Source of the DNA: an uncultured Acidobacteriota bacterium
GTDB taxonomy: Bacteria > Acidobacteriota > UBA6911 > RPQK01 > JAPXNP01
Direction: 5' to 3'
DNA: 64,000 bases
Assembly: GCA_963777605.1 (NCBI GenBank)
Contig: CAVZRV010000027.1
Location: forward strand, 540,982 to 604,981
This document shows positions 37,923 through 59,609 of this stretch, piece after piece. The notes under the pieces are model-generated. The model saw only the letters and a list, made by a program, of their open reading frames with translations. It had not been told where the DNA came from and ran no database searches. The translations under genes and the position numbers were made by a program. Numbering within the stretch: position 1 is the stretch's first letter; each line of letters begins with the position of its first letter.

Positions 37923-38224
37923 CCCTCTTAGAGCTCAACCCAACTCGTTCGATCAACCATCGGCAGGCTCGAAACCGGCCCCTGAAACCCGCCGCCGCCG
38001 AGACCGACTCAAAGCATCCCCTCGTCAGCAAAGCTGAAATAGCGGTAGCCGCCAATAATACAGAGGTCGCCGCCGGCGCGCTCCCAAGCCAGTGATTTTC
38101 AGGGTTCGCGTGTTCTGACCCAGGGTGGCAAGCGACGGTCAGATGAGGCTTTTTGAGGCCAAATCCGCAACAAACACGCAACAGCTCTGAAGGGGCGCAG
38201 ACGGCACAGTTAAAAGGAGATTTG

Positions 38225-39115
38225 ATGCGAAACTACGCGGTCATCACATCGAACTACTGGACCGGGGAAACGGGCCAGCGAATACAGGAGGAGGGCGGTA
38301 TCGAAGCCGCCTGCCTCGGGGCCTACCTGATCTCGAACCGGCACTCCAACGCCATCGGGATCTACTACCTTCCCATCCCGCTTATCGCCTACGAACTGAA
38401 GGCGCTGGACGAGGACGGCATCCGGCGCGCCCTGCAAGTCTTGGCGCAGGAGCAGTTCTCGGCCTACGACGAAGCGCGGAGCATGGTCTACGTGCGGAAC
38501 ATGGCCCGCTTCCAAGTGGCCGAGAGCCTGTCCCGCAACGATAAGCGGGTCCGGTACGTGCTGAAGGAACTGGAACAGGCGGTAAGCTCCGGGGCCATCC
38601 TGTTCGCCCACGACTTCTTCAACCGCTTCCAAGGGGACTACCAGATGGAGCTGACCCCGGCGCTGTCCAGGGCCTTCAGCGGCGTCGCTCCAATCGCGGA
38701 CGTAGCGGCTATGGCTCCGGCCATGCTCGATCGTGCACCGCGCAGGACGGCGGAGCGTCGCCGGGAATCAAAAGGCGCCGCCCCGGAGGGACCTTTCCAC
38801 GAGGTCGCGGTCCCGTTGAATGACGGCTCGGAATACAGCATTCCCATGGCTCACGTCGAAGAGTGGCGGAAGCTGTTCCCCGGCATCGACGTGGACCAGA
38901 CGTTGAGGGACTGTCGGGCGTGGAACCTTGGAAACCCAAAGAACCGGAAAACACGGGACGGCATCAACCGGCACATCACCGGCTGGCTCTCACGGGAGCA
39001 GAACCGGGCCGGGGGCCGCAACGGTGGAAACCGCACTTCAAACCAGCCGACTCAGCGGACGCAGCGCAACGTGGACGCCGCCCGTGAATTCCTCGGCAGA
39101 GCAAGCGGAGAGTAG
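38225..39115 (+). CDS. Phage replication initiator-like protein
   Basis: N-terminal YWTGETG...AYL...HSNAIGIYYLP and C-terminal LNDGSEY...WRKLFPGIDV...RKT..GI.RHITGWLSREQ, a pattern typical of temperate-phage replication proteins; AAAAGGAG RBS. Confidence 0.75.
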   Translation: MRNYAVITSNYWTGETGQRIQEEGGIEAACLGAYLISNRHSNAIGIYYLPIPLIAYELKALDEDGIRRALQVLAQEQFSAYDEARSMVYVRNMARFQVAESLSRNDKRVRYVLKELEQAVSSGAILFAHDFFNRFQGDYQMELTPALSRAFSGVAPIADVAAMAPAMLDRAPRRTAERRRESKGAAPEGPFHEVAVPLNDGSEYSIPMAHVEEWRKLFPGIDVDQTLRDCRAWNLGNPKNRKTRDGINRHITGWLSREQNRAGGRNGGNRTSNQPTQRTQRNVDAAREFLGRASGE

Positions 39116-39117
39116 CG

Positions 39118-39816
39118 ATGAACCAGAAGGACCGCAAGGAGTTTGCCGCTCTCATCGTGGGAACGGCGGAGGCGCTGGGCCGGGAAGTGTCGTCAGCGGC
39201 CATCGAGGTCATGTTCATGGCCCTCTCGGACCTCTCCATCGCGCAGGTGAAGCGCGGTGTCATGGCGCACCTGAACGATCCCCAAGAAGGCAAGTATATG
39301 TTGACTCCCGCGCACGTACGCGCGCACGTGCACGGAGCGGTGAGCTTCCGTGCGCTCAACGCATGGACCAAGGCAGTGAAGGCTGTAGAGCGGCACGGGG
39401 CCTGGCTGTCCGTCGTCTTTGACGACCCGGTCATCCCGCAAGTCATCTCCGACATGGGCGGCTGGATCACCTTCTGCGCCGAGATGAGCGACGAGCCGTG
39501 GCAGCAGAAGGAGTTCGTGCAGCGGTACGAGGGCTATGCGGCTACGGGGCTGCCCGAGGCCGCGCCGGTGAAGCTCCTCGGGCGGCATGAACTGCACAAC
39601 GGGGCGCGTGGGCTGACCTGCCCAGTGCCGCAGTACCGGCTGGTCGGAAACGTGGCCGAGGCCCAGCGGCTGCTCAAGGCGGCGGAGGAGCAGAAGGCCC
39701 TCCCGAGCGAGGCGGAAACGGCCCGCAAGTTCGTGGAACGGGTCGCTGGCTCCGCTGCTGCCCAGTGGTGCGGCGAACTGGAAGCGGCCCGAGAACAGCA
39801 GGAGGACGGCAAATGA
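39118..39816 (+). CDS. DUF6475-like phage protein (possible helicase loader partner)
   Basis: AW.KAV.AV..HG...SVVFDDPVI..VI.DMGGW..FC pattern; directly follows the initiator. Confidence 0.7.
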   Translation: MNQKDRKEFAALIVGTAEALGREVSSAAIEVMFMALSDLSIAQVKRGVMAHLNDPQEGKYMLTPAHVRAHVHGAVSFRALNAWTKAVKAVERHGAWLSVVFDDPVIPQVISDMGGWITFCAEMSDEPWQQKEFVQRYEGYAATGLPEAAPVKLLGRHELHNGARGLTCPVPQYRLVGNVAEAQRLLKAAEEQKALPSEAETARKFVERVAGSAAAQWCGELEAAREQQEDGK

Positions 39817-40145
39817 AGGAGCGGAACTGGACAGCAAAGGCCTTGAGCAGTGGTACTCGTTCCTTGCCGAGCAGACTGCGTCCGGTGCAACAACCCTATC
39901 CCGAGATCGCCCATATCCGGGCCGTCCCCTCGGAGAAGGCCCTGACCTGCTTCCCCGGCGATTCGGGATGTTCGGCCTACGCCGCGCCTTCCACTCTGCA
40001 CGGACTGTCACCAGACGCGCCGGGATCGCTGCACAAAGTCGGTGAGAGAAGCACGTTCTTGACAACCTTGGGCCGGGGCGAAGGCTACCAGTGGAAGTTG
40101 CTCGTGAAGCTGGCGTTCGAATACCTCAACCGGAAGGCGGCTTGA
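39813..40145 (+). CDS. Phage hypothetical protein
   Basis: GGAGG RBS and ATGA overlap with the upstream gene. Confidence 0.55.
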   Translation: MKERNWTAKALSSGTRSLPSRLRPVQQPYPEIAHIRAVPSEKALTCFPGDSGCSAYAAPSTLHGLSPDAPGSLHKVGERSTFLTTLGRGEGYQWKLLVKLAFEYLNRKAA

Positions 40146-40146
40146 G

Positions 40147-40527
40147 ATGAGGGGATGGCGCAATCTCAGCCCCGAGGACTTACGGAGCCTGAAGGTCCGT
40201 GCGAGGGACGCGAAGCCAAGGGCGCTGGACAGAATGAACAAGTGGGAGGTGCTGTTCGCGCAGCGCCTTGAGATGGAGAAGCGGGAAAGGAAGGTGATCG
40301 ACTGGAAATATGAGGCAGTGAAGCTCCGGCTGGCCGACAGGACGTTCTACACGCCAGATTTCATGGTGGTGCTGGCGGACCTCCGGCTGGCTTTCTACGA
40401 AGTCAAGGGCCACCTACGGGATGACGCAGCGGTGAAGTTCAAGGTAGCTGCCGAAACCTTCCCGCAGTTCACTTGGACCATGTTCCGCTACAAGGGCGGC
40501 ACGTGGGACGCAATCTACTCGTTTTGA
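40147..40527 (+). CDS. DUF1064-like PD-(D/E)xK nuclease
   Basis: MNKWE...YTPDF...YEVKG motif. Confidence 0.75.
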   Translation: MRGWRNLSPEDLRSLKVRARDAKPRALDRMNKWEVLFAQRLEMEKRERKVIDWKYEAVKLRLADRTFYTPDFMVVLADLRLAFYEVKGHLRDDAAVKFKVAAETFPQFTWTMFRYKGGTWDAIYSF

Positions 40528-40541
40528 TCGGAGGTTCTACT

Positions 40542-40802
40542 TTGACGCGGCAAGAACTCGTGCAGTTGGGTGAGGTTGAGGAAATCGCTCGGCGATTGGG
40601 GGCGCAGGTGCGGAGCGGGCTGGTACTGGACGGCTTCGGGAAAAAAGTGCTCCCTCTGGCTGTACGGCTGCAGCGGCTCCGCCGTCAGGGCTTCACCGGG
40701 CAGGTGACGATCCTGTTCAGTGACGGTGAGGCCCGGAGTGTCGTGGAGTCGGCCAATCTAAAGATCTCGGACATCGAATTGCAGGACGGGATCGCGTCCT
40801 GA
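40542..40802 (+). CDS. Phage hypothetical protein
   Basis: GGAGG RBS, TTG start, operon position. Confidence 0.5.
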   Translation: MTRQELVQLGEVEEIARRLGAQVRSGLVLDGFGKKVLPLAVRLQRLRRQGFTGQVTILFSDGEARSVVESANLKISDIELQDGIAS

Positions 40803-40831
40803 GAGCGGCAACGGCAAAGAAAGGAACGGCA

Positions 40832-41179
40832 ATGTTTCAGAACGGCGAAATCATTGATCAGATCGGGAAGACGTGCTGGCTTCCCGTGCAGATCGGCCCG
40901 CACTCGTTCGTCTACCACTTCTACCAGACGAACGCGCCGAAAGCCTACGACGGCTTCGGCACCCTCACCATCGAGGAACACGGGTCCACGCGGATCGTGG
41001 GCATACGAACCGCCCACTGCGAATGGCAGTTAATGCGCTACACGAGCGGGATGCACAAGATCGAGGCGCTGGAGGACCACTGGCGAAGCGACATCATCGA
41101 CGCGCTCTGGCTGCGGTTCTCGGGGAAGGACGGGCGGAATGAAGCAGGCGGAACTTGGAACGGCGGTTGGAGCGACTGA
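40832..41179 (+). CDS. Phage hypothetical protein
   Basis: Preceded by the AAGGAACGGCAATG start motif. Confidence 0.6.
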   Translation: MFQNGEIIDQIGKTCWLPVQIGPHSFVYHFYQTNAPKAYDGFGTLTIEEHGSTRIVGIRTAHCEWQLMRYTSGMHKIEALEDHWRSDIIDALWLRFSGKDGRNEAGGTWNGGWSD

Positions 41180-41361
41180 GTGAGCGCACGGGCGTTCCAC
41201 TGGCCGTGGAATACCTTGGGCGTCGCCCCATGATCTACACGGTGGAAGGCCCCGGAATGAGGCAGCTTTCGCCCCGGCTGACCATGCGGGAAATGAGGGA
41301 ATGGCTCGGCGCTTTGGAGCTGGGCATCGAACTCGCAACGGGAAAAGGGAAAGCTGCCTGA
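41155..41361 (+). CDS. Phage hypothetical protein
   Basis: Short ORF closing the + strand operon; possibly a frameshifted continuation. Confidence 0.4.
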   Translation: MERRLERLSERTGVPLAVEYLGRRPMIYTVEGPGMRQLSPRLTMREMREWLGALELGIELATGKGKAA

Positions 41362-41387
41362 CGACGCGCCACACAACCGGCGGCACC

Positions 41388-41460
41388 AAAATGATGGGGG
41401 TGAGTGGCAAGCTCACCCCCAAAGAACGGCAACAGCAAAAAGGAGTGCCCCTTTTGCCTG
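41388..41460 (-). ncRNA. Predicted small antisense RNA (two hairpins with a 14-nt linker)
   Basis: Minus-strand TATAAT at 41472-41467; hairpin GCAAAAGGG/CCUUUUUGC (41457-41435); linker UGUUGCCGUUCUUU (41434-41421); terminator-like hairpin GGGGGUGAG/CUCACCCCC (41420-41396) followed by AUCAUUUU. Confidence 0.55.
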
Positions 41461-41516
41461 CGCATGATTATATCCGACTCAGAGCGGTCTGAAACCGGAA
41501 ATCTTCGGAGGCTGGT

Positions 41517-41587
41517 GATGGCGGCGTGCTTTCCGTTGAAGAAGAGGCTGAAGGTCGCCCAACTGGTGCCGACCTTGTATTCCCAGG
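41517..41587 (-). repeat. 71-bp RHS-core remnant, diverged copy of 43471-43541
   Basis: 63 of 71 bases identical by manual alignment; encodes WEYKVGTSWATFSLFFNGKHAAI versus WEYKVGTGWETFNLFFNGKHAAI. Confidence 0.85.
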
Positions 41588-41643
41588 GCGGGCTCTCCGT
41601 GGAATCCCCGTCGCAAGAGCGCGTTGTATTCCTGGACCTCCCG

Positions 41644-42501
41644 TCATCGGTCGTCATCGGAATCTGCTGTCCTCAGATATTTGCCCGCCAGCCAGTAGAC
41701 GAGTAGACCACCGGCGAGAATAATGAACGCGCCGACTCGCCGCTCTTCCACCACGCCTCCCGAAATGAGACGGAAGAGAACCAGGGCGGCCGCCCCTCCG
41801 CCCAGCAACTGCAGCATCACCCGCCAGAATCCCCTTCCGGGCCGGCCTTCGAGCGCCCGGTTCAGTTCCTCGGGGAATTCCGTCCCGTAGAGATGATCCC
41901 AGGGACCCACTTCTTCTTTTCTACCGGCATACTTGGCCAACACCTTGGCGGACGGCAGCGGTTGGTGCTCGAGGATCCAATCCCAGTGGGTCCTTACAGC
42001 CCTTGCAACCGCTGCAAAGTACATCACAGAACTCGTGAGAAAACTTACCAAAACCATAGGCAACACATATGCAAACAGATTCCGGTTAAGCTCAACGGGA
42101 GTCGGCGGATCTTCAACAATGAGGACATATCCCATTGTGGATAACATTGCGCCGAAAACGGCGGCAACCGGGACTTGTGCGATGTACTTTAGGACGGCGA
42201 ACCTTCCTGCCGAGCTATTCAGAAAGGCTAACGCCTTCAACTCTCCTGACGTGAGCGAAGAAAGAGGTTTGGGAGCATACGCGTTGTTTGAGAATAGATT
42301 CAGTGGCTTCCACATAAAGTATGCCACTGCCAACGAGGAACCAGTGAGCGCTCCTGTTATTGTCCAAGCCACGTCACGGATCGCCTGCCCTCCAACCCAA
42401 GGCATCCAAAGGAAGAATGCGTCAACGAGCAAGATCACAAACAACGACCCATTTGCTCCGATCGCAGGCGGCTCTCTCTCTGGACGTTTCCTGTGAGTCA
42501 A
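41644..42501 (-). CDS. Multi-pass membrane protein, candidate RHS immunity protein
   Basis: About six TM segments, visibly lower GC, immediately downstream of the RHS tip. Confidence 0.55.
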   Translation of the reverse strand: MTHRKRPEREPPAIGANGSLFVILLVDAFFLWMPWVGGQAIRDVAWTITGALTGSSLAVAYFMWKPLNLFSNNAYAPKPLSSLTSGELKALAFLNSSAGRFAVLKYIAQVPVAAVFGAMLSTMGYVLIVEDPPTPVELNRNLFAYVLPMVLVSFLTSSVMYFAAVARAVRTHWDWILEHQPLPSAKVLAKYAGRKEEVGPWDHLYGTEFPEELNRALEGRPGRGFWRVMLQLLGGGAAALVLFRLISGGVVEERRVGAFIILAGGLLVYWLAGKYLRTADSDDDR

Positions 42502-42564
42502 CTCAGTCTCCTATTCATCGTATGGCAGAGGACCATACGTGATCTCACCGATTCGAACGTCCGG

Positions 42565-43857
42565 TCACAAGTGACTCCCTCTTGCGATTCCCTCCAACAA
42601 GCGCAGCCGAAAGCTAAAAAGATCCGCCGGAGTATAGGTCGATCCAATCTCGTGAGTCGCCATGTGATAGGAACTGCCAAAGAAACCAGATAGCCCGAAC
42701 GCCCGGTGAAGATCCTTGGCCTTCGGGCCATAGTATGTGGTGAATCGCGCGGGTACCAACCCAGATCCTGGCCGTGGAGGAATCAGTCCCTGCCACTTCC
42801 ACCGCTGAATGGTAGTGGTTACGGGCCCAAGGACTCGACCAATGAGTGCGCCCATCGTGGTATCAATACCGAGGGAGACGAGATCGATGTCTCTCCAGGT
42901 CTTCTCTGTGAAGGCTGTATCGTATAGCTGACCGCTTATATTCGTCACACCACCTGAGATGGCGCCTGCATATATGGGATTCACAGGATAGGTCATCGAC
43001 GCGGCTAATCCTCCCATTGCTCCGGAGAAAATGCCTTTTCCGTATCCGGTTTGGTTTATATAGGCATCGATTCCACCCCAAACACCTCCAATCAAGATAC
43101 CACCGAGGGGGATGACCGGTACTGCCATTAATCCATCTTGGTCCGTGTAGCGTAGGGGGTTATTGAGCCCGTAGGAATACTTGTTCAGACTCTGCGGTAC
43201 CTCCGTGAAGCCTCCGATCGGATCCGACGAAGTAAACCGCCCGATGGCGCTGCCGTGGTAGCGGGCGCCGAAGCAATCGAGGCCGGTTTCGGCGTCCCGT
43301 TCCTTGCCGGTAAACCAGTAGTCGTCGCCTTCGGTGCAGGTGCGCGAGTTCAGCTCGCCGTAGGGCTTAGTGTAGTAGCGGCAGACGTCGACGCCTGCGT
43401 TGTTCGTCTTCAGGACCAGATTCCCGAGATGATCGAGATGGCGCCAGCGGAGACCCTCGGCGGTGTTGTTGATGGCCGCGTGCTTCCCATTAAAGAAGAG
43501 GTTGAAGGTCTCCCAGCCGGTGCCGACCTTGTATTCCCAGGTCGCGTTCCCTTCGGGATCGTAAAAGTAATAGGTCGTCACCCCGCCCGCGACCTTCTTC
43601 ACGCGGCGGCCGTCCCCGTCATAGGTGTAGGTCGCCGTCGAGCCGCTGTTGACCGTCTTGATCCGACTCGCGCCATCGTACTGAAGCGTAAATCCGGGCA
43701 GTCCCAACTGGTTTCCCGCCGAGTCGTAGCTGTTGTAGCCGGTCGTCGTGATCCGGTTGGTCGCGCTGTTGAAGGACAGCGCCAGCGTCGAGGCGCTGCG
43801 GTTCCCCCAGCGGTCGTAGGTGAAGGTCTGGTTGGTTACCGCATTACTCTGCAACAT
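42565..43857 (-). CDS. Orphan RHS/YD-repeat core fragment with C-terminal toxin tip
   Basis: YDRWGNR and YDGDGRRVKK repeats, FTGKERDAETGLD.FGARY, and DP...Y.YGLNNPLRYTDQDGL; Gly-rich hydrophobic tip; N-terminal RHS body missing. Confidence 0.9.
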   Translation of the reverse strand: MLQSNAVTNQTFTYDRWGNRSASTLALSFNSATNRITTTGYNSYDSAGNQLGLPGFTLQYDGASRIKTVNSGSTATYTYDGDGRRVKKVAGGVTTYYFYDPEGNATWEYKVGTGWETFNLFFNGKHAAINNTAEGLRWRHLDHLGNLVLKTNNAGVDVCRYYTKPYGELNSRTCTEGDDYWFTGKERDAETGLDCFGARYHGSAIGRFTSSDPIGGFTEVPQSLNKYSYGLNNPLRYTDQDGLMAVPVIPLGGILIGGVWGGIDAYINQTGYGKGIFSGAMGGLAASMTYPVNPIYAGAISGGVTNISGQLYDTAFTEKTWRDIDLVSLGIDTTMGALIGRVLGPVTTTIQRWKWQGLIPPRPGSGLVPARFTTYYGPKAKDLHRAFGLSGFFGSSYHMATHEIGSTYTPADLFSFRLRLLEGIARGSHL

Positions 43858-45400: not shown

Positions 45401-46538
45401 TCACTCAACTCCGGTTCCGATTCCTCGCAGCAAACAATGCCCGGATCGGTGGCCTGCGAAGCCATCCTCTTGCTCAATCAAAGCCCGCCGTCCTCTCCGG
45501 AGGACACTTTGAGTGGGATCGAGGAGGGCTCGACCTGGGCCACGCGCGGGTCGCGTTCGAGTGCTTTTGCCACCGAGTCCGGGCAACTGATCTGCCAGTC
45601 ATCGAGGGATGCGATATACAAGCGCGAAGCCGTACTGGTCGCGCAGCTCCTCAAAGAACGCCTCGGAGCCGGTTGTCGTTGTCAGCCGATAGACTCCCGG
45701 ACGATCCGTCCGCGAGACTTGCGCCCGCCAGAGCTCTGTTCCTTTGGTATAGACCGCCGTGGCCGAGAACCCTCGGGCTTGCCAATCGTAAGCGATCAGG
45801 TGGATCCAGCCCTGAAATCCGCCGCTGCCGACGTTGATGTCGAACAACTCATCCGCGAACTGGGCCAGATGGCGGGGATCGGACGGGCTTCTCAGGAGGA
45901 TCGACCTTTGCGCCAGTCGGGTTCCGTCTTTGTCATAAAGGCTGAGACGGTATTCGCCAGGCTCGCGTGAAGAACACCGCCAACCCGGTGTTCTCGACCT
46001 GGTCTGAGCGGTAGAGCACCGGGATCACGGCGCCCGCTTCGAGAGGCTCCGCCGGCAGGCTGAGCTGCGAGAGGATCTCTCCTTCCTGCTTGGTGACCAT
46101 GAGAGCGGAGACGGAAAGCGGCTTCGTACAGTGGATCCGGATTGAGCCCTTACGCAGCTCACCGCCACTAAGAATGATGGTCTTGGTTGCCATAGGTCCC
46201 AATTCGAAGGAGGTAGAGGGGAGCAATTCCTCGTCTGTACTCGTCAAATCAATCGAAACGGCTTCCTCGTTCGGGTTGATCACCTGGAGAGTCGTCTCGA
46301 TGCTCGGGTCGCTTCCGCCTTTGGCGACCTGAGGCAGAACCCTGTCAAAATCGTTGAGCCGATTTTGCCCGGGTAGCAGGGCCACACAAAACAGCGCAAC
46401 GAACAGAACCAAAATCGGCAAGGGCGCTCTGACAGGGTGACTCCGCAAAGTGTACTGACATGCGGGTGCCCGCTTCCGAGTCGGGCGTCGAGAAGTCCTT
46501 CGGCAGTGATTAGTCATTTCTCTTTTCTCCTGGCTCAA
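45401..46538 (-). CDS. Secreted beta-rich protein of the paralogous family (frameshifted)
   Basis: Signal peptide; LPQVAKGG...TTLQVINPN...ENTGLAV. Confidence 0.55.
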
Positions 46539-46694
46539 TCTCCCAGATCAGCGCTCGCTACCAATTGTCCCTTGGCTCCCCGGAGAGAGTCTCTTTTCTG
46601 CATCAACCAGCTGATCATCGATCGTTGGGCCATTACCAGTAGGGCCGCCCAGAGACGGGAGCGGAGCCACCATCGTGAAAGGCAGTATCGAGGA

Positions 46695-48596
46695 TCATGG
46701 GATTCCGACCGGATAACTCGACATGGGGTAGCCGTTTCGAGTTCGTAATGCCGTGACGACCACCGGTATTTCAGAGGAGATGATCAGCGTCCCGGTAACG
46801 TCAGTGTTGACCAGATCCGGAAACAGCTCGTCGATGAATTTGGCCACATGCTGACCGGGTTCCAGTGTAATGGAAGCGTCGAGGTACACCATCGGTCTGG
46901 TCGGAAATCTCAAGGTCAACGGTCGCCCGCTCATCCAGAGGATTCGCGATCGCAATTCCGGTGCTAATCCTGTCTCGGGCAGCTGAGGAACGAGTCGAGA
47001 CGAAGACGCTCGCCAGCCCGGTCGGCTGCGCGTCCCCGACTCCGGCTTCGAAGAGGATGTCGCCGGACTCACGGACCTGGTAGACGGCCGTTCCCGAATC
47101 GGCCGGGATGCGGTCACGCGGGCCCAGCCTTTGACAAGAGGGTTCGTTGCTCCTGCCGTCTGAATTGCCACGCACCCGTAGCGTTCGAGAACGAAGTCCA
47201 GGCTGGAAACCGCTCCCACGGAACCTTCAACCTCGACAGGGGCAGGATTTCCGTCATCGTCTAAGAACTCGACGGTTCCTGTCGCTTCGTCGGTGGTCAG
47301 GTTGGCAAGGGTAATCAGCGTCGAGGCCCCCATGCCGTCGGCAAATTGCGGGAGGTAGATCGTATTCAAAGGACGATAGATCTTGAGCTCGTTCGCAAAA
47401 AGGACGAAGAGCGTATCCTTCACGACCGATAGACTCTGTACGGTGCCGCTCTGTGACGAGCTCCAGTGCACGTTTCCGGAGAAGGCATCCAGGGTGCGAA
47501 CGCAGTCTTCTGCCCAGGAATTGAAGAAGTACACAGCATTATTTGCGATTTGAACAAACTGAGGAGGATGGGGGAGAGGAGGGGGTTCGAGATCAAGCTG
47601 CGCGTCTCTGTAATCAAGGCTCTGCCAAAGGAACTCGCCAGTCTCGGGAGCGAGGGCTGCGACTCGATTCTCCAGGGTGCTGCTGAACAACGGGGTGCCG
47701 GAGAAAACGAGGAGTTGATCGTAGGCCAACGCGATTCCTGGATTGCCGAAGGTCGAGTGACCGGCGAACGGAATAGCGAATTCGACACTCCACGCAACCG
47801 ACCCGTCGCTGGTGCGGACCGCGTTTACTCGCCCATCGGACTGATTGCTGACGTAGACGAACTTGCGGGTGGCGATGATGTTCGAGCCGTCCGAGCCGAT
47901 TTCCGGGGCCGACCAGATCGGGACACCCGTCAGGAGATCGAGTGCGGTGAGGCTTCCCTCGTCTGTGAGTACATAGACCCGGCTCCCGATTCTCGATAAG
48001 GGAGCCTTGGCCAGATGGATGCTTCCCAGTTCGGCACTCGGCGGATACTGCCAGACGAGCGTTCCGTCACTGGGGCGGGCAGCGACCACGCCCCACTCGC
48101 CCGAGTACAGGGCCAAGTCATCCAGGAGCAGCGGGAAGCGTCCGTCCGAAGATCCAACCCGGTTGTCCTGCCAGAGGACGTTTCCAGTCGAGACCTCAAC
48201 CGCCGTCACCGACGTGCTCGTGGACCCGCCCAGCAGTACGATGTCTCCGTTGATGGCAGGGACGTAATTGAGAGTGTCGGGTGTATTGGTTGGAAGATCG
48301 AATCTCCAGACCTCCGAGCCCGTCTCGCTGTCGAGCAAGGAGTAGTGCGCGGCTTCTCCTCCCTGTCCAATCAGCACGTAGTCCTCGAAGACCGACAGGG
48401 TCTGAGCCGTCGTCCCTTCCGGAAGGCTCAAGGTCCGGTCCAGTTCCAGCGGAGGCTTGAAGTCCCCGGCGTCCGAATTGAGGTAGGTGCGCGAGTCGTT
48501 AAAACCCGCGGTCGCCTGGTCGCCGAGATTCTGTCCCAGCATGGGGAAGCACGCCGAGACAATTGTCACCAGCGCAGCCTGTAAGATCCTGTTCAT
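46695..48596 (-). CDS. PQQ-like beta-propeller protein with the C-terminal family domain (frameshifts near 46890-47100)
   Basis: Repeated ALD..TG...W blades; LPQFADG...TLITLAN; ends TGTLIISSEIPVVVTALRT. Confidence 0.75.
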   Translation of the reverse strand: MNRILQAALVTIVSACFPMLGQNLGDQATAGFNDSRTYLNSDAGDFKPPLELDRTLSLPEGTTAQTLSVFEDYVLIGQGGEAAHYSLLDSETGSEVWRFDLPTNTPDTLNYVPAINGDIVLLGGSTSTSVTAVEVSTGNVLWQDNRVGSSDGRFPLLLDDLALYSGEWGVVAARPSDGTLVWQYPPSAELGSIHLAKAPLSRIGSRVYVLTDEGSLTALDLLTGVPIWSAPEIGSDGSNIIATRKFVYVSNQSDGRVNAVRTSDGSVAWSVEFAIPFAGHSTFGNPGIALAYDQLLVFSGTPLFSSTLENRVAALAPETGEFLWQSLDYRDAQLDLEPPPLPHPPQFVQIANNAVYFFNSWAEDCVRTLDAFSGNVHWSSSQSGTVQSLSVVKDTLFVLFANELKIYRPLNTIYLPQFADGMGASTLITLANLTTDEATGTVEFLDDDGNPAPVEVEGSVGAVSSLDFVLERYGCVAIQTAGATNPLVKGWARVTASRPIRERPSTRSVSPATSSSKPESGTRSRPGWRASSSRLVPQLPETGLAPELRSRILWMSGRPLTLRFPTRPMVYLDASITLEPGQHVAKFIDELFPDLVNTDVTGTLIISSEIPVVVTALRTRNGYPMSSYPVGIP

Positions 48597-48660
48597 CAGA
48601 GCTCTCCTCCCTTGGCCAGTTGATCATCGAATTCGACCGATCCGAAGATCTCCACCAACT

Positions 48661-49990
48661 TCATTTCTGCAGGCTGGAAACGGGGACGGCCGACACCGGA
48701 AGCCCCGCTCTCGTCCGAAGCACGACAACGGCAAGGGGCTGATCGCTCACGATATGCAGCGTCCCCTGGTAATCCTGGTCCAGGAACTCGGGAAACAACT
48801 CCGCGAGGAATTGCGCCGCATGCTTTCCCGGGCCCAGTGTCAGCCAAGCGCAGATTCCATTCCCCTTTAGTTCAATGGTGGCTTCCTTCTGGCTGGTATT
48901 GACAATGGCCAGGCCACTGTCCAGTCGACCGTTGGTGACTTTCTGCGCCGAAGCGACCGCAGAAAAAACACCGGTTGTTGCCTCGACATCGGCGTTGGAC
49001 AACTCCAATCCCGATGAATCGTAGACAGAGAAGATCGCGAGACTGTCGAGTGGGGTATTCGCGCTGACGATGCGTACCCCAGCATCACGGAAGACGGGAG
49101 GTCGTCCATCGACAAAAGCTTCGATTCCAGAGGATCCAACGAGAGATCGAATGCGTTGGCCGAGGATCCACCAGGCTTAAGACGATGGGTTGCCCGTCGT
49201 TATCGAAGACGAGATCTGTCCCTTGCCGGGACGCCGGCGGGATTGGAGACAATGAAAGAGGTCGACAGCGTGAGATCCTCCGAATTGTCGGAGGTCACCG
49301 TTCCGGCTCCTATCTGGGCCAGATAAGTCGTAAAGATCCGCTCCCCCTCCAAATAGTCGATGGTAATCGCTTCGAATTCTTCCGGGGTTGAATCGCGATA
49401 GTCGAAGACGACCTTTGAAATCCCGAGAGGAGAGCTGGTTTCGAGCCCAACCGGTCCCGAGAATCCATCGTGCTCAACGGTTCCCAGTGAAGTGCCCTGA
49501 GGGTCAAAGGCTTCCAGGAAGACCATGTGGGATTCACCGAAACATAATGTATGCCGGCGGATGAAAGAGAACGGCCTTTAAGGGGACCTCGAAATCAACG
49601 ATCAGTGGCTGAGCAGCCTGCGCTTTGCCAGGATCGTTTATATCTTCACCGGGGCTGTCGTTCCGCAGGAACGAAATGAAGTTGGGAGCGGTTGCTTCCG
49701 CAATTTCTATCCCAGGCTTTAATCAGCGGGGGGGACGAAGGGGCACCGCGAAACGTAATTCCCCATCTCTTGAAGACCGTTGCGGCCGGCGCACCGGCCA
49801 GTGCAACGTCCACTCGCACGCATCCCCTCCAAATTCAAGGGAGACCGCGTGCTCGGATAACTGAGCCGGGTCCGTGATCTCCGAAACCTGGGCAACTGCG
49901 AAACCCGCACAGCACATCCAGGCCGTCTGTACCAGAATCCATCCGATGGTGCCATTGGGTGTCCGAAACAAGCGCAATCCGATCATAATG
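48661..49990 (-). CDS. Secreted family protein (multiple frameshifts)
   Basis: Fragments YLAQIGAG...TSFIVSNP and DSGLAIVN...GTLHIVSDQPLAVVVLRT. Confidence 0.6.
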
Positions 49991-50090
49991 AACGCCCTCT
50001 CCAACTGCTGCTATTTCTGATTGCTACATAGAAAATGCCGAGCACCATCAATCACGCGTGATGGGGTCGCTGCCGATGGCGCTGACGCCG

Positions 50091-51416
50091 TCATTTCGCC
50101 GGTCCAGCGGGGACCCTTCGCAGTGGAAGACTGGCCGAGACAACGCCCTGAATGGTTCGAAGGATCGTCACCGCGACCGGCTCATCCGAGATGATCTCGA
50201 CCGTCCCTTCGGCGTCGCGGCCGGACAACGATTCCGCCAGTTCGTCCGCAAACCAGGCGCCCTGTTCTCCCGGGCCGAGGACCACGTCCGTTTCCATTGT
50301 CGTGTTGGGACTCATGAAGAACGTGACACTTGCCGTCGCCTCGCTGTCCGAGACATTCGCCAGCGCCAGCGCCGTATTCGTATCTTCGGCAATCGTCTTT
50401 TCGAAGACGCCGGTAAAGCTTTGGCCGGGAATGGCGCTGTCGATTCCCGCTTCCGAGAGAGGCGCTCCGGTCTGGTCGAGGACTCGATAGACGGCCCCCA
50501 GCTCGAACGGATATTTGGACGCGGCACAGACATAACCCTGGTCCAACGGCGTGACAGAGTCTGAAGTCCGAAGAATTCGCGAATCCTGGTGACGATGCAA
50601 ATAAGCATGGAATATATACTCGAAGTCGCTGTTCACGGTCCCATCGAGATTGACGACTAATGGCGCACCCCCCGGCTCTCGAAATTCAAGAGAGACAAGC
50701 TGATCGAACGTTGGATTCCAAGGCGAGCCGCGCCATGACTCGGTGATCGTCAACAGTGTCTGCAGGGTCCGACCTTCGAGCGGAAGCGCACCATGTGCCA
50801 CTTGAGAGACACACCGTCGGAACGTCGGGGGCTCGGCAAAATCGGCGACGATCCGAATGAGCGCCTCGGGAATCGTTTGATCCGCGTACTCAACCTCGAC
50901 CCGGGCGATTCCCGTCCCCTCGGCTTCCTCGAGAGAGAAGTTATAAGGGTTCCACTCATCGATTGGTTTATCGATTTCCCCCAGTAGCCCTCCGTCCACC
51001 CCAAAGAATTTCGCTGCGACCATCGTTTCGGACTCCGCACCCATGGTCAGCGAAACACGGGGTAAGGGAGTGTCGAAGGTAACAATCAGACCTCCGGCGG
51101 CTTCCCCGTTGACGAGGGGATTCATGATCACGGGGGTGTCTACTTTGTAGGGCGGGTCGCCGAATCCCGGGTAGACAGAAATGGTTCCGCTCTCCGGCCG
51201 CTTGACGGTTCCCGTCGAGACTGTAACGCCCCAGTCCGCAAAAACCTGATCCGTCTTGACCCCCGGTGGGAGGGGCGGAGGCAGAAGTGTAACCCTATCC
51301 TCACTGAACGTGATCCTAAGCCGGTTGAGTGGTTCAGCTAGAACCCAGGCCCCCGACATCGCCAGCAACAACACGCCCATAGCAGAACAAAGCAATGATC
51401 GGCTGATCCGCTTCAT
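50091..51416 (-). CDS. Secreted family protein, tandem paralog 1
   Basis: GGAGGAGG RBS, signal peptide, VSQVAHG...NTALALAN...EGTVEIISDEPVAVTILRT. Confidence 0.75.
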   Translation of the reverse strand: MKRISRSLLCSAMGVLLLAMSGAWVLAEPLNRLRITFSEDRVTLLPPPLPPGVKTDQVFADWGVTVSTGTVKRPESGTISVYPGFGDPPYKVDTPVIMNPLVNGEAAGGLIVTFDTPLPRVSLTMGAESETMVAAKFFGVDGGLLGEIDKPIDEWNPYNFSLEEAEGTGIARVEVEYADQTIPEALIRIVADFAEPPTFRRCVSQVAHGALPLEGRTLQTLLTITESWRGSPWNPTFDQLVSLEFREPGGAPLVVNLDGTVNSDFEYIFHAYLHRHQDSRILRTSDSVTPLDQGYVCAASKYPFELGAVYRVLDQTGAPLSEAGIDSAIPGQSFTGVFEKTIAEDTNTALALANVSDSEATASVTFFMSPNTTMETDVVLGPGEQGAWFADELAESLSGRDAEGTVEIISDEPVAVTILRTIQGVVSASLPLRRVPAGPAK

Positions 51417-51622
51417 CGTATTTTCCTCCTCCCTTGTCCGACGCCAAACTCCGGGGCGACGAGTGGTCAATCTGAGCCATCAAGAGAACATTCCACCGCC
51501 CCGAGTGGAACGGTTTAGATTGACCGTACCATTGAACGTCCTCATGGCTACCCTCTTCCCCCTCTTGCCGAACACAAGCATTAGATCGATTGTCCTCGCT
51601 TCTCCGGCGACGTGGTTCGAAA

Positions 51623-52953
51623 TCACTTCGCCGGTCCAGCGGGGAGCCTCCGCAGCGGAAGACTGGCGGAGACGACCCCTTGAATGGTTCGAAGGATCGT
51701 CACCGCGACCGGCTCATCCGAGATGATCTCGACCGTCCCTTCGGCGTCGCGACCGGACAACGATTCCGCCAGTTCGTCCGCAAACCAGGCGCCCTGTTCT
51801 CCCGGGCCGAGGACCACGTCCGCTTCCATTGTCGTGTTGGGACTCATGAAGAACGTGACACTTGCCGTTGCTTCGCTGTCCGAGACATTCGCCAGGGCCA
51901 GCGCCGTATTCGTATCTTCGGCAATCGTCTTTTCGAAGACGCCGGTAAAGCTTTGGCCGGGAATGGAGCTGTCGATTCCCGCTTCTGCGAGAGGCGCCCC
52001 GGTTGAATCGAGAATTCGGTAGACCGTCGCCAGTTCGAACGGGAATTTGGACGTGGCGCAGGCATAGCCCTGGTCCAGTGGGCTGCCGGAGTCCGCAGTC
52101 CGAAGAATGCGTGAATCCAAGTATCGATACATGTGACCGGAGAAGAGATATTCGAAGTCGCTATTCACCTCTCCACCGAGATTGACCGTCAAAGGTCCGC
52201 CCCCAGGCTCTCGAAATCCAAGAGAGACGATCTGAGATTTTAAATCCGGGACCCTGAAATCCGTGTCGGCCCACAACCCGGTAATCGTCAACAGCGTTTG
52301 AAGGGTTCGGTCTTCGAACGGAAGCGCACCCTGCGCCACCTGGGAGACGCAACGCTGGAACGGACGCGGTTCGACATATTCGGCGACGATGAGGTTGAGC
52401 GCCTCGGGGACATCCGTTTCCTCGTATTCCACCTCCACACGAACGATCCCGGCGCCGTCGGCGTCCTCCAGGGCGAATTCGTCGGGATAGATGCCGTAAA
52501 GTGTCCCCGTATCCTCACCCAGGAAAGTCCCACTCCGATCGAAGAACCGTGCGACTACGTTGGTTTCAGACTCGGCTCCCATGTTCAAAGAAACTCGCCG
52601 CACAGGTTCATCGAAATTGATGGTCATGCCTCCCGCACTCACCTCCGACTCCGAGCCATTGAGAATCACCGGAGCTGCAATCGGGGTAACGAGGTTGACG
52701 TGTGGAACCTCGGACAGTGTGCCCGTTCGAGGGCCCTGGACTGACCCGCTTGAAATCGTCACGCCCCAGTCCTCAAAGACATGACTGGCACTGAGTCCCG
52801 AAGGGAGAGGGTGGAGGTACCAGTGCAACCCAGTCCTCACCGAAGTCAAACGGTCCCCAGCCATACGGCTGGGCGATCGTTGGAACCTCTCCGAGTGCAA
52901 TCACCACCAAAACCAAGATCGTGTAAGTCGAACGATCTGCCCCATCGCTTCAT
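51623..52953 (-). CDS. Secreted family protein, tandem paralog 2 (5' frameshift)
   Basis: C-terminal ~130 codons nearly identical to paralog 1; same RBS and leader. Confidence 0.75.
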
Positions 52954-53347
52954 CGTGAATTCCTCCTCCCTTTGCCGGCGCCAAGCCCCAGGCGGCAAGC
53001 GGTCAATCCGAGCCATCAAGAGAACATTCCAGCGCCCCTGATCGAACGGTTCAGATTGACCGTGCCAACGCCAGCTTACGTTCTACGCACATCGCATTCC
53101 AGAGAAACTTGGAAGAGCATTTAAGCACCCATTTCTGTAAAAAGGCTCTGATAGTCCCTGTCAGCCCTTCTCTCACAGGAGATCTCCTCATGGGAAATAC
53201 CAACACAAAAGTCCTACAAGTGACACACGGCCGGGACATTCCGACCCGCCAATCTGACCCAGTGTTCGCCCTGCAAAAGCGCGAAAGATTCAATTCCACA
53301 AGGTCTTCTTGGAGCCTGAATCGTGAATCCAAGGCACCGATCAGATT

Positions 53348-54426
53348 TCAAGGCGTCACCTCATCCAGTTCCAGAGGGTCGAAGCAGACCGAGTTCACCT
53401 GCGGATTTACCGCCAGAACCCTCGCTGTTGCGACGGTGCTGTCCACGAACGCGCGGGTGACCGACGAAAACTCTTCCCGGCGCTCGATGGAGAGCCCATA
53501 AGATGAGAGCAGATCCGCGGCATCGGCCTGGGCACGGATTGCCACTTCGAAGCGAGCCGGGATGTCGATCGGGGTCGCCGGTGCGGCCCGAAGGTCCAGC
53601 CCGTCGGTGTAAAGCGCCACCACTGCCATGCCGAAGGGGAACTGCAGACCGACCCTCGAGTCGTCGCTTCCGAGGTAGGACGTATGCTCCAGCGTCAGAA
53701 CCCTCGCTGGAATCCTTCCGGAAGTTGGTCGAACAGTTCCTGTAGCAGCACTGCGTAGCGCCTCCAGAAGTCGGGGCTCTGAGAGCAGATGGGAGGGCGA
53801 GGCGGCTCCACGTTCGGAGCGCAACTCTCCGATTGGGCCGCCAATTCGCGGGTCGCGATCAGTTCACCGTTCAGGTCTCGAAGCTCAGCCAAAATGAGCC
53901 CGCCAGCCGGACTGCTGATCGCGACGCCCGTGTTGTCTGCCAGAAAGTCGTTGCGGAAGACCGGGAAGGTGAACTTCGAGCCCGGTTCGACTCCCGGCAC
54001 CGAAACCGCGCTTACGATCGATCCGTCGGCGGCTTGACCCTGTATATGCGCCACGACGGACAGGACTCCATCCGTCTTGACTCTCAGCCAGCCGCCCTCC
54101 ACCGGTTCCTCTCCGTCCGGCTGGAACTCGATCACCCGGGTCGCTCCCGGCGCGAGTTCATCTTCCTCAACGGGTTGAGTGCCGCGAAGGTCCCATCCGT
54201 TTGATACCTCAATGGCGGCCGATTCCGTCCCGGCGTTGGAGATTGTGACGGTTGTTCTGTAGGCAAGACCGGCGGCCGGTCCCACCACCATGTGAGGAAC
54301 GTCGATCACGCGATTGGTAATGTTGTCGCAACTGAACTTGGTTATCTGGAGTTGGGCGTGGAGAACGGATCCCGAAGCCAGGATCCACAGAAGTGCAGGC
54401 AGTACACAGATTCGCGGGGCACGCAT
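53348..54426 (-). CDS. Secreted family protein (frameshifted)
   Basis: Signal peptide; VPHMVVG...RTTVTISN...GWLRV...DNTGVAIS. Confidence 0.6.
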
Positions 54427-56172: not shown

Positions 56173-56243
56173 TCCAACCTCTCGGGCCGGGACGTAGCAG
56201 TTCCGGCCCCGACACTTCCCCGGTGTATCGAAGGAGAACGGCA

Positions 56244-56516
56244 ATGACGGAAGAACAACTGCGCGAGTTGAAAGATGTATACGGTGAGGATTCGGTGGTG
56301 TGTTCGGTTGGAAGCTGGACCGTAATCATGCTGGACCGGCCGGACGCGGAGACCATCGAGCGGCGGCTCAGCGAGTTTGACCCAACGAGCTTTCTCACGG
56401 ACGGCTGCCCCCTCTGTCAGCTTTTGGCCAGAGAAGGCGGCGAGATCGTTTACGACCAGACGGAAGTGACCACGGGGCGGAAACGACTTTCGCCAGTGAA
56501 ACGGGAGGCAAAGTAG
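56244..56516 (+). CDS. Small hypothetical protein (CPLC)
   Basis: AAGGAGAACGGCAATG start motif. Confidence 0.65.
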   Translation: MTEEQLRELKDVYGEDSVVCSVGSWTVIMLDRPDAETIERRLSEFDPTSFLTDGCPLCQLLAREGGEIVYDQTEVTTGRKRLSPVKREAK

Positions 56517-57147: not shown

Positions 57148-57296
57148 CTCGGTGCCCGTAGCCCCGTCATCCGTTGGGTCTGGTACGGGTTACGGTCGCC
57201 GACCTCCGTTTGCCAAAGTGAAGGAATCGAGACACCGCCCCACGAGGTGACGCCGTGAAACGCTTCCAATTCATCGGGTCACTGGGAGGGACAACT

Positions 57297-58304: not shown

Positions 58305-58391
58305 TTTACTCTCGGCCTCCTGACCAACCCATTCTCCTTCCTGTCCACTAAAGTTTCAAGGGTCTTAGACTCCGCACGCGACGCACTTCTT

Positions 58392-58749: not shown

Positions 58750-58771
58750 CCGCACACAAAGGAGAACGGCA

Positions 58772-59609
58772 ATGGCAACACAGATGGATGCAATCACGGA
58801 ACGGATCGTGAAAATGCTGGAACAGGGCGTGCCGATCTGGCGGAAGAGCTGGACCAGCATGATGCCCCGAAACGTCGAGGGGCGGAAGTACCGGGGCATT
58901 AACGTGCTCCTGCTGGCAACCGCCGGGTTCGGCTCCCCGTACTGGCTCACCTTCAACCAGTGCAAGAGCCTCGGCGGATACGTCAAACGGGGCGAAAAGG
59001 GGACGCAGGTCATCCTGCTCAAGCCCTGTACGCGCGAGGACAAGGAATCGCGGCGAGGAACGGACCTACTGGCTGACCCGCACTTACACGGTCTTCAACC
59101 TCGACCAGACCGACGGGATACCGGAGGGCCGGCTACCGAAGCTTCCCTTCTCGGGCAACGAACCGCTGGCACAGGCGGAATCCATTGTGGCGGGCTACCA
59201 GGATGGCCCCGTAGTGAAGAACGACAGCCTCCGGGCCTTCTACTGCCCCAGGACCGATGAGGTCTACGTCCCCGCGCTGGCTCAATTTGAGAACCCGGCG
59301 CAATTTTACAGTGTCCTGTTTCATGAACTCGCGCACTCGACCGGAATTCCCAAGCGGCTCCACCGTTTCGAGGCCGATAAGCCCCACGCCCACGGCAGCG
59401 AGGAGTACGGCTACGAAGAACTGGTCGCTGAGATGACGGCGGCGTTCCTCTGCGGACAGTGTGGCTTGGACCGGACCACGATGGAAACCTCAGCGGCCTA
59501 CCTTCAGGGCTGGCTCCAGGTCATCAAGAAGGACGTGCGGCTGATCACACGGGCGGCGTCAGCCGCACAGCTCGCATTTGACCGGATCATCGGTGATGGA
59601 GGGTGTTAA
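58772..59609 (+). CDS. ardC: ArdC-family antirestriction/ssDNA-binding protein (frameshift near 59050)
   Basis: W.KSW...PRN...KYRGIN...YWLTFNQ...GG.VKRGEKG N-domain; AFY...D...P, HELAHSTG and YGYEELVAE zincin-like domain. Confidence 0.88.

What the first reader, a model, noticed from the sequence alone, without database searches (positions are those of the whole stretch)
41388..41472. Candidate trans-acting small RNA complementary to the start regions of several element genes, including ardC
Seen: on the minus strand a perfect TATAAT precedes a ~73-nt unit of hairpin, unpaired linker 5'-UGUUGCCGUUCUUU-3' and a GC-rich terminator-like hairpin. Seen: allowing G:U pairs, the linker pairs over all 14 nt with AAGGAACGGCAAUG (40821-34) and GGAGAACGGCAAUG (56233-46 and 58761-74, ardC), and over 12 nt with GGAGGACGGCAA (39801-12). 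The duplex covers the Shine-Dalgarno region in each case and also the AUG in the three 14-nt cases. Hairpin 1 additionally contains anti-SD CUCCUUU. Inference: one element-encoded antisense RNA silences translation of dispersed early/anti-defence genes up to 17 kb away, conceptually like P1 C4 or P4 CI RNA but with no sequence I recognise. The -35 element is weak.
Basis: partly seen in the sequence, partly recalled or inferred. Interest (0 to 1): 0.85.

Follow-up and report, generated by a model that had tools for sequence, protein, structure and literature searches.

The report
Orphan small-RNA candidate at recombination scar
A roughly 72-base unit with a promoter box, two hairpins and a terminator looks like a stand-alone small RNA gene, but nothing shows that it silences the neighbouring genes it partly matches.

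Summary
On the minus strand a perfect TATAAT (41472-41467) precedes hairpin 1, the linker UGUUGCCGUUCUUU (41434-41421) and a 10-bp terminator hairpin with a U-rich tail. All four complementary start regions exist as described.

For a real transcription unit: this is the only TATAAT in the 64 kb. Only 2 of 222 intergenic TATAATs in the genome are followed by a strict terminator.

For the pairing: the window's starts rank 14, 15 and 18 of 13,340 SD-preceded starts.

Against the pairing:
- An unbiased genome-wide scan puts the locus only 41st of 206 intergenic loci for local enrichment.
- 200-1000 other genomic sites pair as well.
- Only 7 linker bases are unpaired in the fold.

Against "one element":
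- The unit is single-copy and has no homologue anywhere searched.
- It starts exactly where homology to a paralogous 3.3-kb phage-like module ends, and it abuts an Rhs fragment.
- ardC is split by a frameshift.

Verdict: a plausible orphan sRNA gene. Multi-target silencing is possible (about 0.2) but unproven. No expression data were available.

The parts
41467..41472 (-). perfect -10 hexamer TATAAT; the best -35 is GTTTCA (3 of 6, spacer 17)
   Evidence: It is the only TATAAT on either strand of the 64-kb window, and 303 occur in the 6.73-Mb genome. In this genome 73% of TATAATs are intergenic, and 136 lie upstream of same-strand starts against 78 in the reversed orientation. A 3 of 6 match at -35 is the commonest value among 137 gene-upstream TATAAT sites. 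The consensus scan did not call a promoter here because it needs 4 of 6 at -35.
41388..41462 (-). predicted RNA of about 72-75 nt (ends inferred, not measured)
   Evidence: Folds. No Rfam family matched at gathering score, and none came near it in E-value mode.
41434..41458 (-). hairpin 1: GGCAAAAGGG / CCUUUUUGCU, loop GCACU
41421..41434 (-). linker/seed UGUUGCCGUUCUUU; only CGUUCUU (41428-41422) is unpaired in the MFE
41385..41421 (-). hairpin 2 with tail UCAUUUUGGU: an intrinsic-terminator-like site for the minus strand only (the plus strand has no U run)
   Evidence: It is one of 61 hairpins of this strength (stem at least 10, G-C at least 7, U-rich tail) on both strands of the genome.
41384..41385 (.). 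breakpoint: homology of the 3.3-kb phage-like module to its paralogue on contig C31 ends here
41513..41700 (-). Rhs core fragment; start of 89% homology to the Rhs array on C13. The unit therefore lies in a 128-nt single-copy stretch, 41385-41512.
39801..39815 (+). GGAGGACGGCAA+ATG, start of a 110-codon ORF overlapping the stop of the DUF6475 gene; 12 pairs, -17.0 kcal/mol
   Evidence: My gene caller did not call this ORF. The segment 39737-40128 has no counterpart in the C31 copy.
40800..40834 (+). two adjacent sites before the 115-aa gene: TGAGAGCGGCAACG (-20.6) and AAGGAACGGCAATG (-18.3 as the bare 14-mer; -18.6 in its start-region window); three CGGCAA hexamers
   Evidence: The C31 paralogue reads GGGGAGAAAAGGCAATG here.
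56233..56246 (+). GGAGAACGGCAATG, start of a 90-aa ORF of unknown function; -18.9 kcal/mol
58761..58774 (+). GGAGAACGGCAATG, start of ardC; the gene is split (N-terminal part in the 58772-59260 frame, C-terminal part in the 59187-59609 frame)

Best explanation
The 41388-41472 unit is most likely a free-standing small non-coding RNA gene. It has its own -10 box, would make a transcript of about 72 nt with two hairpins, and ends in an intrinsic terminator. It sits in a 128-nt single-copy stretch between the end of a 3.3-kb phage-like replication module and an Rhs orphan fragment.

If transcribed, it can only act by base pairing, in two ways:
1. It is fully complementary to any plus-strand read-through from the module's operon (38225-41361), which has no plus-strand terminator of its own here.
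2. Its unpaired CGUUCUU, extended into UGUUGCC, can cover the Shine-Dalgarno and AUG of three to four nearby starts that share a GRACGGCAA box.

Shown: the sequence signals, the fold, the complementarity, and their frequencies in this genome.
Inferred: transcription (I put it at about 0.6) and any regulation. Trans-silencing of the listed starts I put at about 0.2 to 0.25.
For: Promoter:
- This is the only TATAAT in the window, and 303 occur in the genome.
- TATAAT behaves as a -10 element here: 73% are intergenic, and 136 against 78 are oriented towards a gene start within 300 nt, at a median distance of 44 nt.
- A 3 of 6 match at -35 is typical of such sites.

Unit:
- Only 2 of 222 intergenic TATAATs are followed within 15-115 nt by a strict terminator, against 9 of 3000 random intergenic positions.
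- Hairpins of this strength number 61 in the genome.
- The fold has z = -3.4.

Pairing:
- Duplexes are -17.0 to -18.9 kcal/mol.
- Net cofold gains are -11.0 to -14.8 kcal/mol, ranking 4, 13, 30 and 40 of 5,249 starts.
- In a uniform set the starts rank 14, 15 and 18 of 13,340, while only 89 of the 13,340 lie within 20 kb.

The box is not general:
- Of 28 AACGGCAATG in the genome, only the three in the window have an SD and open an ORF of 90 or more codons.
- None of 11 other ardC-like starts carries it.
Against: - No transcript evidence was available, because no RNA run was listed.
- No homologue of the unit turned up. BLAST against its own genome found only itself. 61 related genomes gave nothing. 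The exact 18-mer gave 0 viral, 15 genome and 21 metagenome hits, none with similar flanks.
- The paralogous module on C31 lacks the unit, and its equivalent start region does not match the seed.
- The uniform scan for local enrichment of 12-nt G:U-tolerant pairing gives P = 5e-4. That is 4 local partners out of 55 genome-wide, rank 172 of 845 loci and 41 of 206 intergenic loci. About 0.4 such intergenic loci are therefore expected per 64 kb.
- With permissive starts, 364 loci have 4 or more local partners.
- The 'unique in the genome' result depends on two starts that I added by hand.
- Among all genomic sites the four rank 208, 208, 356 and 1034 of 25,904.
- Start regions of genes elsewhere in the genome pair as well or better, e.g. 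C7:300470 and C7:1035044.
- The chance expectation for TATAAT plus a strict terminator is 0.67 per genome against 2 seen, which is only weak enrichment.
Confidence: 0.45

Rival explanations
1. Non-functional scar. Hairpin 2 is just a minus-strand terminator, or a leftover 3' end of the Rhs orphan/immunity array. The TATAAT and hairpin 1 are chance or relics of lost DNA, and the complementarity is a coincidence favoured by purine-rich SD sequences and G:U tolerance.
For: - The unit lies exactly between two recombination breakpoints, 41384/41385 and 41512/41513.
- It has no homologues.
- 41 intergenic loci in this genome show equal or stronger local enrichment.
- 0.67 TATAAT-plus-terminator units are expected by chance per genome.
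- The neighbouring module copy carries indels and ardC is frameshifted, so the region looks decayed.
Against: - The terminator is 223 nt from the nearest upstream minus-strand stop (41644), and terminator-like hairpins show no excess at that distance.
- A TATAAT at the right distance has a chance of about 1e-3.
- The coincidence of the rare unit with a locally enriched seed is, by my estimate, below 1% per genome.
Confidence: 0.3
2. One reading: one mobile element encodes a master antisense RNA that silences its own dispersed early and anti-defence genes (ardC and others) up to 17 kb away, like P1 C4 or P4 CI.
For: - The rank tests.
- An identical 16-nt AAGGAGAACGGCAATG at two unrelated starts 2.5 kb apart.
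- The box is absent from other ardC starts.
Against: - No single element can be drawn. Host metabolic genes reach 37922. The module is 3.3 kb and ends before the unit. An Rhs array, a 9-kb triplicated segment and an IS-like insert separate the unit from 56-59 kb.
- ardC is broken.
- The other three targets have no known function.
- No Rfam C4-type match.
- The RNA is on the opposite strand with its own promoter, unlike C4/CI, which are cut out of the target transcript (recalled).
- The pairing is not exceptional in the unbiased scan.
Confidence: 0.15
3. The plus-strand copy AAAGAACGGCAAC in the unit is a fifth, decayed member of a plus-strand start-region box (GRACGGCAA). That box spread locally by duplication or recombination, or is bound by a protein. 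The apparent antisense seed is then simply its reverse complement.
For: - All five copies are on the plus strand.
- AACGGCAA occurs 8 times on the plus strand of the window against 3.6 expected for both strands, and 7 of the 8 lie in 40.8-58.8 kb.
- Similarity of the unit to 40801-40824 extends over 24 nt into hairpin 1, with two mismatches and one 2-nt gap. Its score of 27 is second of 5,245 start regions.
- There are three CGGCAA hexamers before 40832.
Against: - No start codon or ORF follows the copy in the unit.
- The control strand reaches the same top alignment score of 27.
- This reading does not explain the TATAAT-terminator arrangement on the other strand.
Confidence: 0.1

Closest known systems
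Prophage- or island-encoded trans-acting sRNAs that occlude SD/AUG, e.g. DicF of the Qin prophage (recalled, not from a call)
   Same: Short RNA, a single-stranded seed next to a terminator hairpin, encoded in mobile or decayed foreign DNA, predicted to pair with translation start regions.
   Different: No sequence or covariance-model match to any Rfam family. There is no expression data and no conservation. The targets here are neighbours rather than core genes.
P1/P7 C4 and P4 CI immunity antisense RNAs (recalled)
   Same: The idea of one small RNA whose short stretches are complementary to ribosome-binding sites of several genes of the same element.
   Different: C4 and CI are processed out of the same-strand transcript that carries their targets. 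This unit is on the opposite strand with its own -10 box and terminator. There is no Rfam match, and no coherent element surrounds it.
Lambda OOP RNA (recalled): a 77-nt antisense RNA with its own promoter and terminator, next to the replication genes
   Same: Size, its own promoter and terminator, convergent to a phage-type operon, and adjacent to replication-module genes (DnaD-like, DUF6475, resolvase-like).
   Different: OOP overlaps the 3' end of cII. Here the predicted RNA ends about 26 nt beyond the stop of the last plus-strand ORF (41361), so it overlaps only a 3' UTR or read-through.
Plain intrinsic terminator in a convergent intergenic region
   Same: A G+C-rich 10-bp stem followed by a U-rich tail on the minus strand.
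   Different: It is preceded 45 nt upstream by the only TATAAT in 64 kb and lies 223 nt from the nearest upstream stop. The plus strand has no U tract, so it is not bidirectional.

Membership tests
Any described RNA family (Rfam 15), including C4/CI-type and DicF | Match to the family covariance model at gathering score | tested here: not met
   0 matches in the whole window at gathering score. In E-value mode on 41250-41650 there were 5 weak matches (11-21 bits against gathering scores of 37-110), none of them a bacterial regulatory sRNA of this kind.
P1 C4 / P4 CI immunity RNA | Encoded on the same strand and in the same transcript as its targets, and released by processing | tested here: not met
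   The unit is on the minus strand and all four targets are on the plus strand. It has its own -10 box and terminator. The defining feature itself is recalled.
P1 C4 / P4 CI immunity RNA | Short stretches complementary to ribosome-binding sites of element genes | tested here: met
   12-14 nt including 3-4 G:U pairs, at -17.0 to -18.9 kcal/mol. This is in silico only.
Trans-acting base-pairing sRNA gene | Own promoter | tested here: inconclusive
   A perfect -10 that is rare and orientation-biased in this genome. The -35 match is 3 of 6, which is typical here. The consensus scan did not call it.
Trans-acting base-pairing sRNA gene | Intrinsic terminator at the 3' end | tested here: met
Trans-acting base-pairing sRNA gene | Accessible seed | tested here: inconclusive
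   7 of the 14 linker bases are unpaired in the MFE. The rest are held in a weak 3-bp outer helix and the last pair of hairpin 1.
Trans-acting base-pairing sRNA gene | A transcript of the predicted size exists | not testable with these tools
   No RNA run was listed for this sequence.
Trans-acting base-pairing sRNA gene | Seed and targets conserved or co-varying in relatives | tested here: inconclusive
   No relative of the unit was found. The island itself has almost no relatives: 3 proteins in 5.8 billion for the 115-aa gene and 1 of 400 other genomes of the phylum for the DUF6475 gene, at 29% identity. The one paralogous module lacks both the unit and the matching box.
Cis-antisense RNA of the lambda OOP type | Overlaps the coding 3' end of the convergent gene | tested here: not met
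   The last plus-strand ORF stops at 41361 and the RNA is predicted to end near 41388.
ArdC anti-restriction protein (target gene) | ArdC N-terminal domain followed in frame by the C-terminal domain | tested here: not met
   ArdcN scores 2.3e-26 in the 58772-59260 frame. The C-terminal part (PHROG anti-restriction, 2.5e-37, profile positions 178-301 of 324) lies in another frame, 59187-59609. The cause is either a frameshift or an assembly error.

The most novel reading that the evidence does not exclude
A stand-alone 72-nt RNA, picked up moron-like at a recombination junction, co-represses translation of several unrelated neighbouring genes, including ardC. Those genes have each acquired the same 14-16-nt start-region box (GGAGAACGGCAAUG). 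A shared 'address label' at the ribosome-binding site would thus place dispersed foreign genes under one riboregulator.
Probability: 0.2. Interest if true: 0.6.

Novelty: new member of a known kind. Interest (0 to 1): 0.35.

Why it matters
If the RNA is made and does bind these starts, it would show horizontally acquired genes, among them an anti-restriction gene, being wired to one small RNA through a common start-region box. The case would come from a lineage with no described riboregulators.

As it stands it is a reasonable sRNA gene prediction without expression or conservation support, in a decayed and mosaic region. It is useful as a candidate for RNA-seq annotation. It is not evidence for a new mechanism.

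Tried and rejected
- **Expression.** The look-up of sequencing runs listed no RNA holder for 40700-41700.
- **Earlier findings.** As a result the 1,369-nt metagenome contig that encodes the only outside relative of the 115-aa protein (P0003) could not be read.
- **Relatives of the neighbouring 115-aa gene.** None by pattern in genome contigs. One 12-residue match in viral contigs, which I judged meaningless. None in 76 genomes of the order. None in metagenome contigs with alignment A2.
- **Exact 18-mer of seed plus stem.** 0, 15 and 21 hits in the three collections, all with unrelated flanks.
- **The 54.8-59.7 kb region in 401 genomes of the phylum.** Only about 70% identity inside the ardC coding part.
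- **The DUF6475 protein in the phylum.** One distant hit, with no similar unit nearby.
- **Search for a compensating antisense partner of the C31 start region.** The output was noise dominated by poly-T tracts and gave no finding.
- **Energy-filtered partner count.** It is not comparable across loci because the antisense segments differ in length. I do not use it.
- **The 'only locus with four local partners' result.** It depends on two starts I added by hand (39813, 58772). Without them the count is 2. I report it only with that caveat.
- **Gene calls.** Those behind searches come from my own crude codon-usage caller (5,254 genes, 80% coding). It missed 39813, 41155 and the ardC N-terminal frame.
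- **Readings considered and rejected.** Replication iterons, because the hexamer spacing of 6 and 15 nt is irregular and the copies lie 17 kb apart. An attenuator or leader, because no downstream minus-strand gene exists. A small protein or leaderless mRNA, because the ATG at 41466 lies upstream of the predicted start. att sites, because the repeat finder gave only short chance repeats and there is no tRNA.
- **Literature.** One search (ardC + small RNA + antisense) listed 4 papers. All were unrelated judging by title and abstract, and none was read. Statements about C4, CI, OOP and DicF are recalled and come from no call. No supplements were consulted.
- **Protein atlas.** It gave no usable hit for the 90-aa and 115-aa proteins.

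Full report
**What is there**

Read on the minus strand, the stretch 41472-41385 contains these parts in order:
- a perfect TATAAT (41472-41467);
- a hairpin GGCAAAAGGG/CCUUUUUGCU with loop GCACU (41458-41434);
- the linker UGUUGCCGUUCUUU (41434-41421);
- a 10-bp, 7-G-C hairpin (41421-41395) followed by UCAUUUUGGU.

The terminator scan lists the second hairpin. The 81-nt fold is -35.7 kcal/mol with z = -3.4. The plus strand folds nearly as well (z = -2.9) but has no U run after the stem, so the site can terminate only minus-strand transcripts.

No Rfam family matches, neither at gathering score over the window nor anywhere near it in E-value mode over 41250-41650.

The four complementary start regions exist as described. 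They open ORFs of 110, 115, 90 and 162 codons. The last is the N-terminal domain of ArdC (Pfam 2.3e-26).
- 3-4 pairs of each duplex are G:U.
- The Watson-Crick core is 9-10 nt.
- In the fold of the predicted RNA only CGUUCUU is free.

**Where it lies**

The window is the last 64 kb of contig C27 of a 6.73-Mb, 53-contig genome.

- Genes up to 37922 are ordinary metabolism: beta-eliminating lyase, PfkB kinases, a metallo-beta-lactamase-fold protein and a nucleoside phosphorylase.
- From about 38080 to 41384 runs a 3.3-kb phage-like replication module. It holds a DnaD-like loader, a DUF6475 protein, a resolvase-like protein and small ORFs.
- The module has a paralogue of 83% identity at the end of contig C31. 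The alignment shows homology stopping at 41384, one base before the unit, and starting about 140 nt before the first gene.
- From 41513 the sequence is an Rhs core fragment and orphan array, 89% identical to one on C13.

The unit therefore occupies a 128-nt stretch (41385-41512) that is single-copy in the genome and is bounded by two recombination breakpoints.

Between it and the 56-59 kb targets lie the Rhs array, a roughly 9-kb segment present in three copies in the genome (C35, C29) and an IS-like insert with a copy on C10. ardC itself is split over two frames. The window copy of the module carries indels relative to C31. A single 'element' that contains both the RNA and all its targets cannot be drawn.

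**Is the unit a real gene?**

In this genome TATAAT is rare: 303 copies on both strands, and just this one in the window. It behaves like a -10 element:
- 73% of copies are intergenic.
- 136 of the 222 intergenic copies point at a same-strand start within 300 nt, against 78 in the opposite orientation. The median distance is 44 nt.

Strict intrinsic terminators are also rare. There are 449 on both strands, 61 as strong as this one, and only about 60 lie within 100 nt downstream of a predicted stop.

Only 2 of the 222 intergenic TATAATs are followed within 15-115 nt by such a terminator: this one and C7:1073009. Random intergenic positions give 9 of 3000, so 0.67 are expected by chance. I read this as moderate support, about 0.6, that a small minus-strand transcript is really made.

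The nearest upstream minus-strand stop is 223 nt away, and terminators show no excess at that distance. The hairpin is therefore not obviously the terminator of the neighbouring gene.

**Is the complementarity meaningful?**

For it:
- Against 5,253 start regions from my own crude gene caller, plus two starts added by hand, the window's four rank 3, 4, 6 and 15 by duplex energy.
- With the whole 73-nt RNA and 60-nt targets co-folded, they rank 4, 13, 30 and 40 of 5,249.
- In a uniform, permissive set of 13,340 SD-preceded starts, three rank 14, 15 and 18. Only 89 of the 13,340 lie within 20 kb.
- The box is not a general feature of the genome. Of 28 AACGGCAATG, only the three in the window follow an SD and open an ORF of 90 or more codons.
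- The box is not a feature of ardC. None of the 11 other ardC-like starts examined carries it.
- Two unrelated starts 2.5 kb apart share an identical 16-mer.

Against it:
- The same linker pairs as well or better with 200-1000 other genomic sites.
- It pairs as well or better with start regions elsewhere in the genome whose products, read by eye from their first 60 residues, look like an ABC-type ATPase and a methyltransferase (no family search was run).
- The 'unique locus with four local partners' rests on my two manual additions. With the permissive set, 364 loci reach four.
- In the fairest test, every 12-mer with three or more local partners was scored for local enrichment against all its partners in the genome. 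The candidate has 4 local of 55 partners (P = 5e-4). It ranks 172nd of 845 loci and 41st of 206 intergenic loci.

A reader scanning 64 kb would thus meet an intergenic match of this quality roughly four times in ten. What stays unusual is that it coincides with one of only two promoter-terminator units in the genome. From I estimate that coincidence at under 1% per genome. That is notable, but it is not decisive in a scan of very many windows.

**A second reading of the same letters**

All five copies of GRACGGCAA are on the plus strand: 39801, 40821, 41421, 56233 and 58761.
- AACGGCAA occurs 8 times on the plus strand of the window against 3.6 expected for both strands.
- Three CGGCAA hexamers precede the 115-aa gene.
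- The unit's plus strand resembles 40801-40824 over 24 nt, with two mismatches and one 2-nt gap, running into hairpin 1.

That alignment score (27) is second of 5,245 start regions, but the control strand reaches the same top score. The seed could therefore be the reverse complement of a decayed member of a plus-strand box family. No start codon or ORF follows it, though, and this reading leaves the promoter-terminator arrangement unexplained.

**Comparative evidence is empty rather than negative**

- The 115-aa protein has three members among 5.8 billion proteins: itself, the C31 paralogue and one protein on a 1.4-kb metagenome contig that I could not read.
- No relatives turned up in 76 genomes of the order.
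- The DUF6475 protein has one distant relative in 400 other genomes of the phylum.
- The unit has no homologue by BLAST in 61 relatives or by exact 18-mer in three collections.
- The only informative comparison is the C31 paralogue. It lacks the unit, and its equivalent start region reads GGGGAGAAAAGGCAATG, which does not fit the seed. That is compatible both with co-occurrence of RNA and box and with plain divergence.

**Verdict**

The structure and its signals are real, and it most likely is a small independent transcription unit: an orphan sRNA candidate at a recombination scar (0.45 for a functional antisense RNA of some kind).

The specific claim of a master silencer of one element's early and anti-defence genes is only partly supported. 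The pairing is energetically adequate and locally concentrated, but it is not exceptional under an unbiased test. The 'element' is a mosaic, one target is a broken gene, and the others have no known function.

I give trans-silencing of these starts about 0.2. If true, it would be a new member of a known kind (an island-encoded base-pairing sRNA) with an interesting shared start-region box. As it stands, interest is modest.

Noticed in passing
window 58772-59609: ardC is split. The ArdC-N domain is in the 58772-59260 frame and the C-terminal part (PHROG anti-restriction, profile 178-301 of 324) is in the 59187-59609 frame. This is a frameshift or an assembly error.
   Followed up: partly
window 38080-41384 and G000:C31:524336-527257: A 3.3-kb phage-like replication module (DnaD-like, DUF6475, resolvase-like and small ORFs) is present twice in the genome at 83% identity with unrelated flanks. 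The window copy has indels that change the end of the 115-aa ORF and the start of the 68-aa ORF. The segment 39737-40128 differs between the copies.
   Followed up: partly
window 41513-43857: An Rhs orphan array: a 430-aa Rhs C-terminal ORF, a 285-aa membrane-like ORF and a further core fragment. It is 89% identical to C13:11402-13668 and related to pieces on C52 and C11.
   Followed up: partly
window 45483-54802: A segment of about 9 kb (a PQQ/BamB-like beta-propeller protein and paralogous 459- and 425-aa proteins of unknown family) recurs at 82-93% identity on C35 and C29. The two large ORFs are also paralogues of each other.
   Followed up: no
window 57296-58378: A minus-strand 335-aa ORF with no family hit interrupts the plus-strand gene row before ardC. 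It has a 90% identical copy at C10:400612-401694, so it looks like an insertion sequence.
   Followed up: no
G000:C31:527258-527769 (L004): The last roughly 500 nt of contig C31 form a long inverted repeat (fold-back). This is probably an assembly artefact, so what follows the paralogous module there is unknown.
   Followed up: no
G000:C7:1048962-1049340; C8:331791-331940; C31:258375 onward: Poly-T tracts hundreds of bases long, two of them followed by poly-G, sit inside large contigs. They are likely sequencing or assembly artefacts.
   Followed up: no
G000:C7:1073009 minus strand (L068): This is the only other intergenic TATAAT in the genome followed by a strict terminator (about 120 nt). 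It has no Rfam match at E up to 0.1 and is a second sRNA-like unit.
   Followed up: partly
A host-side site (TGAGAACGGCAACT, -20.3) precedes a 98-codon ORF at 7836.
   Followed up: partly
G000:C28:205713-205731: A 19-nt near-copy (one difference) of the C31 start region CAGGGGAGAAAAGGCAATG sits on the minus strand of another contig, followed by an ATG. Start-region boxes ending in GGCAATG may recur at other genes.
   Followed up: no
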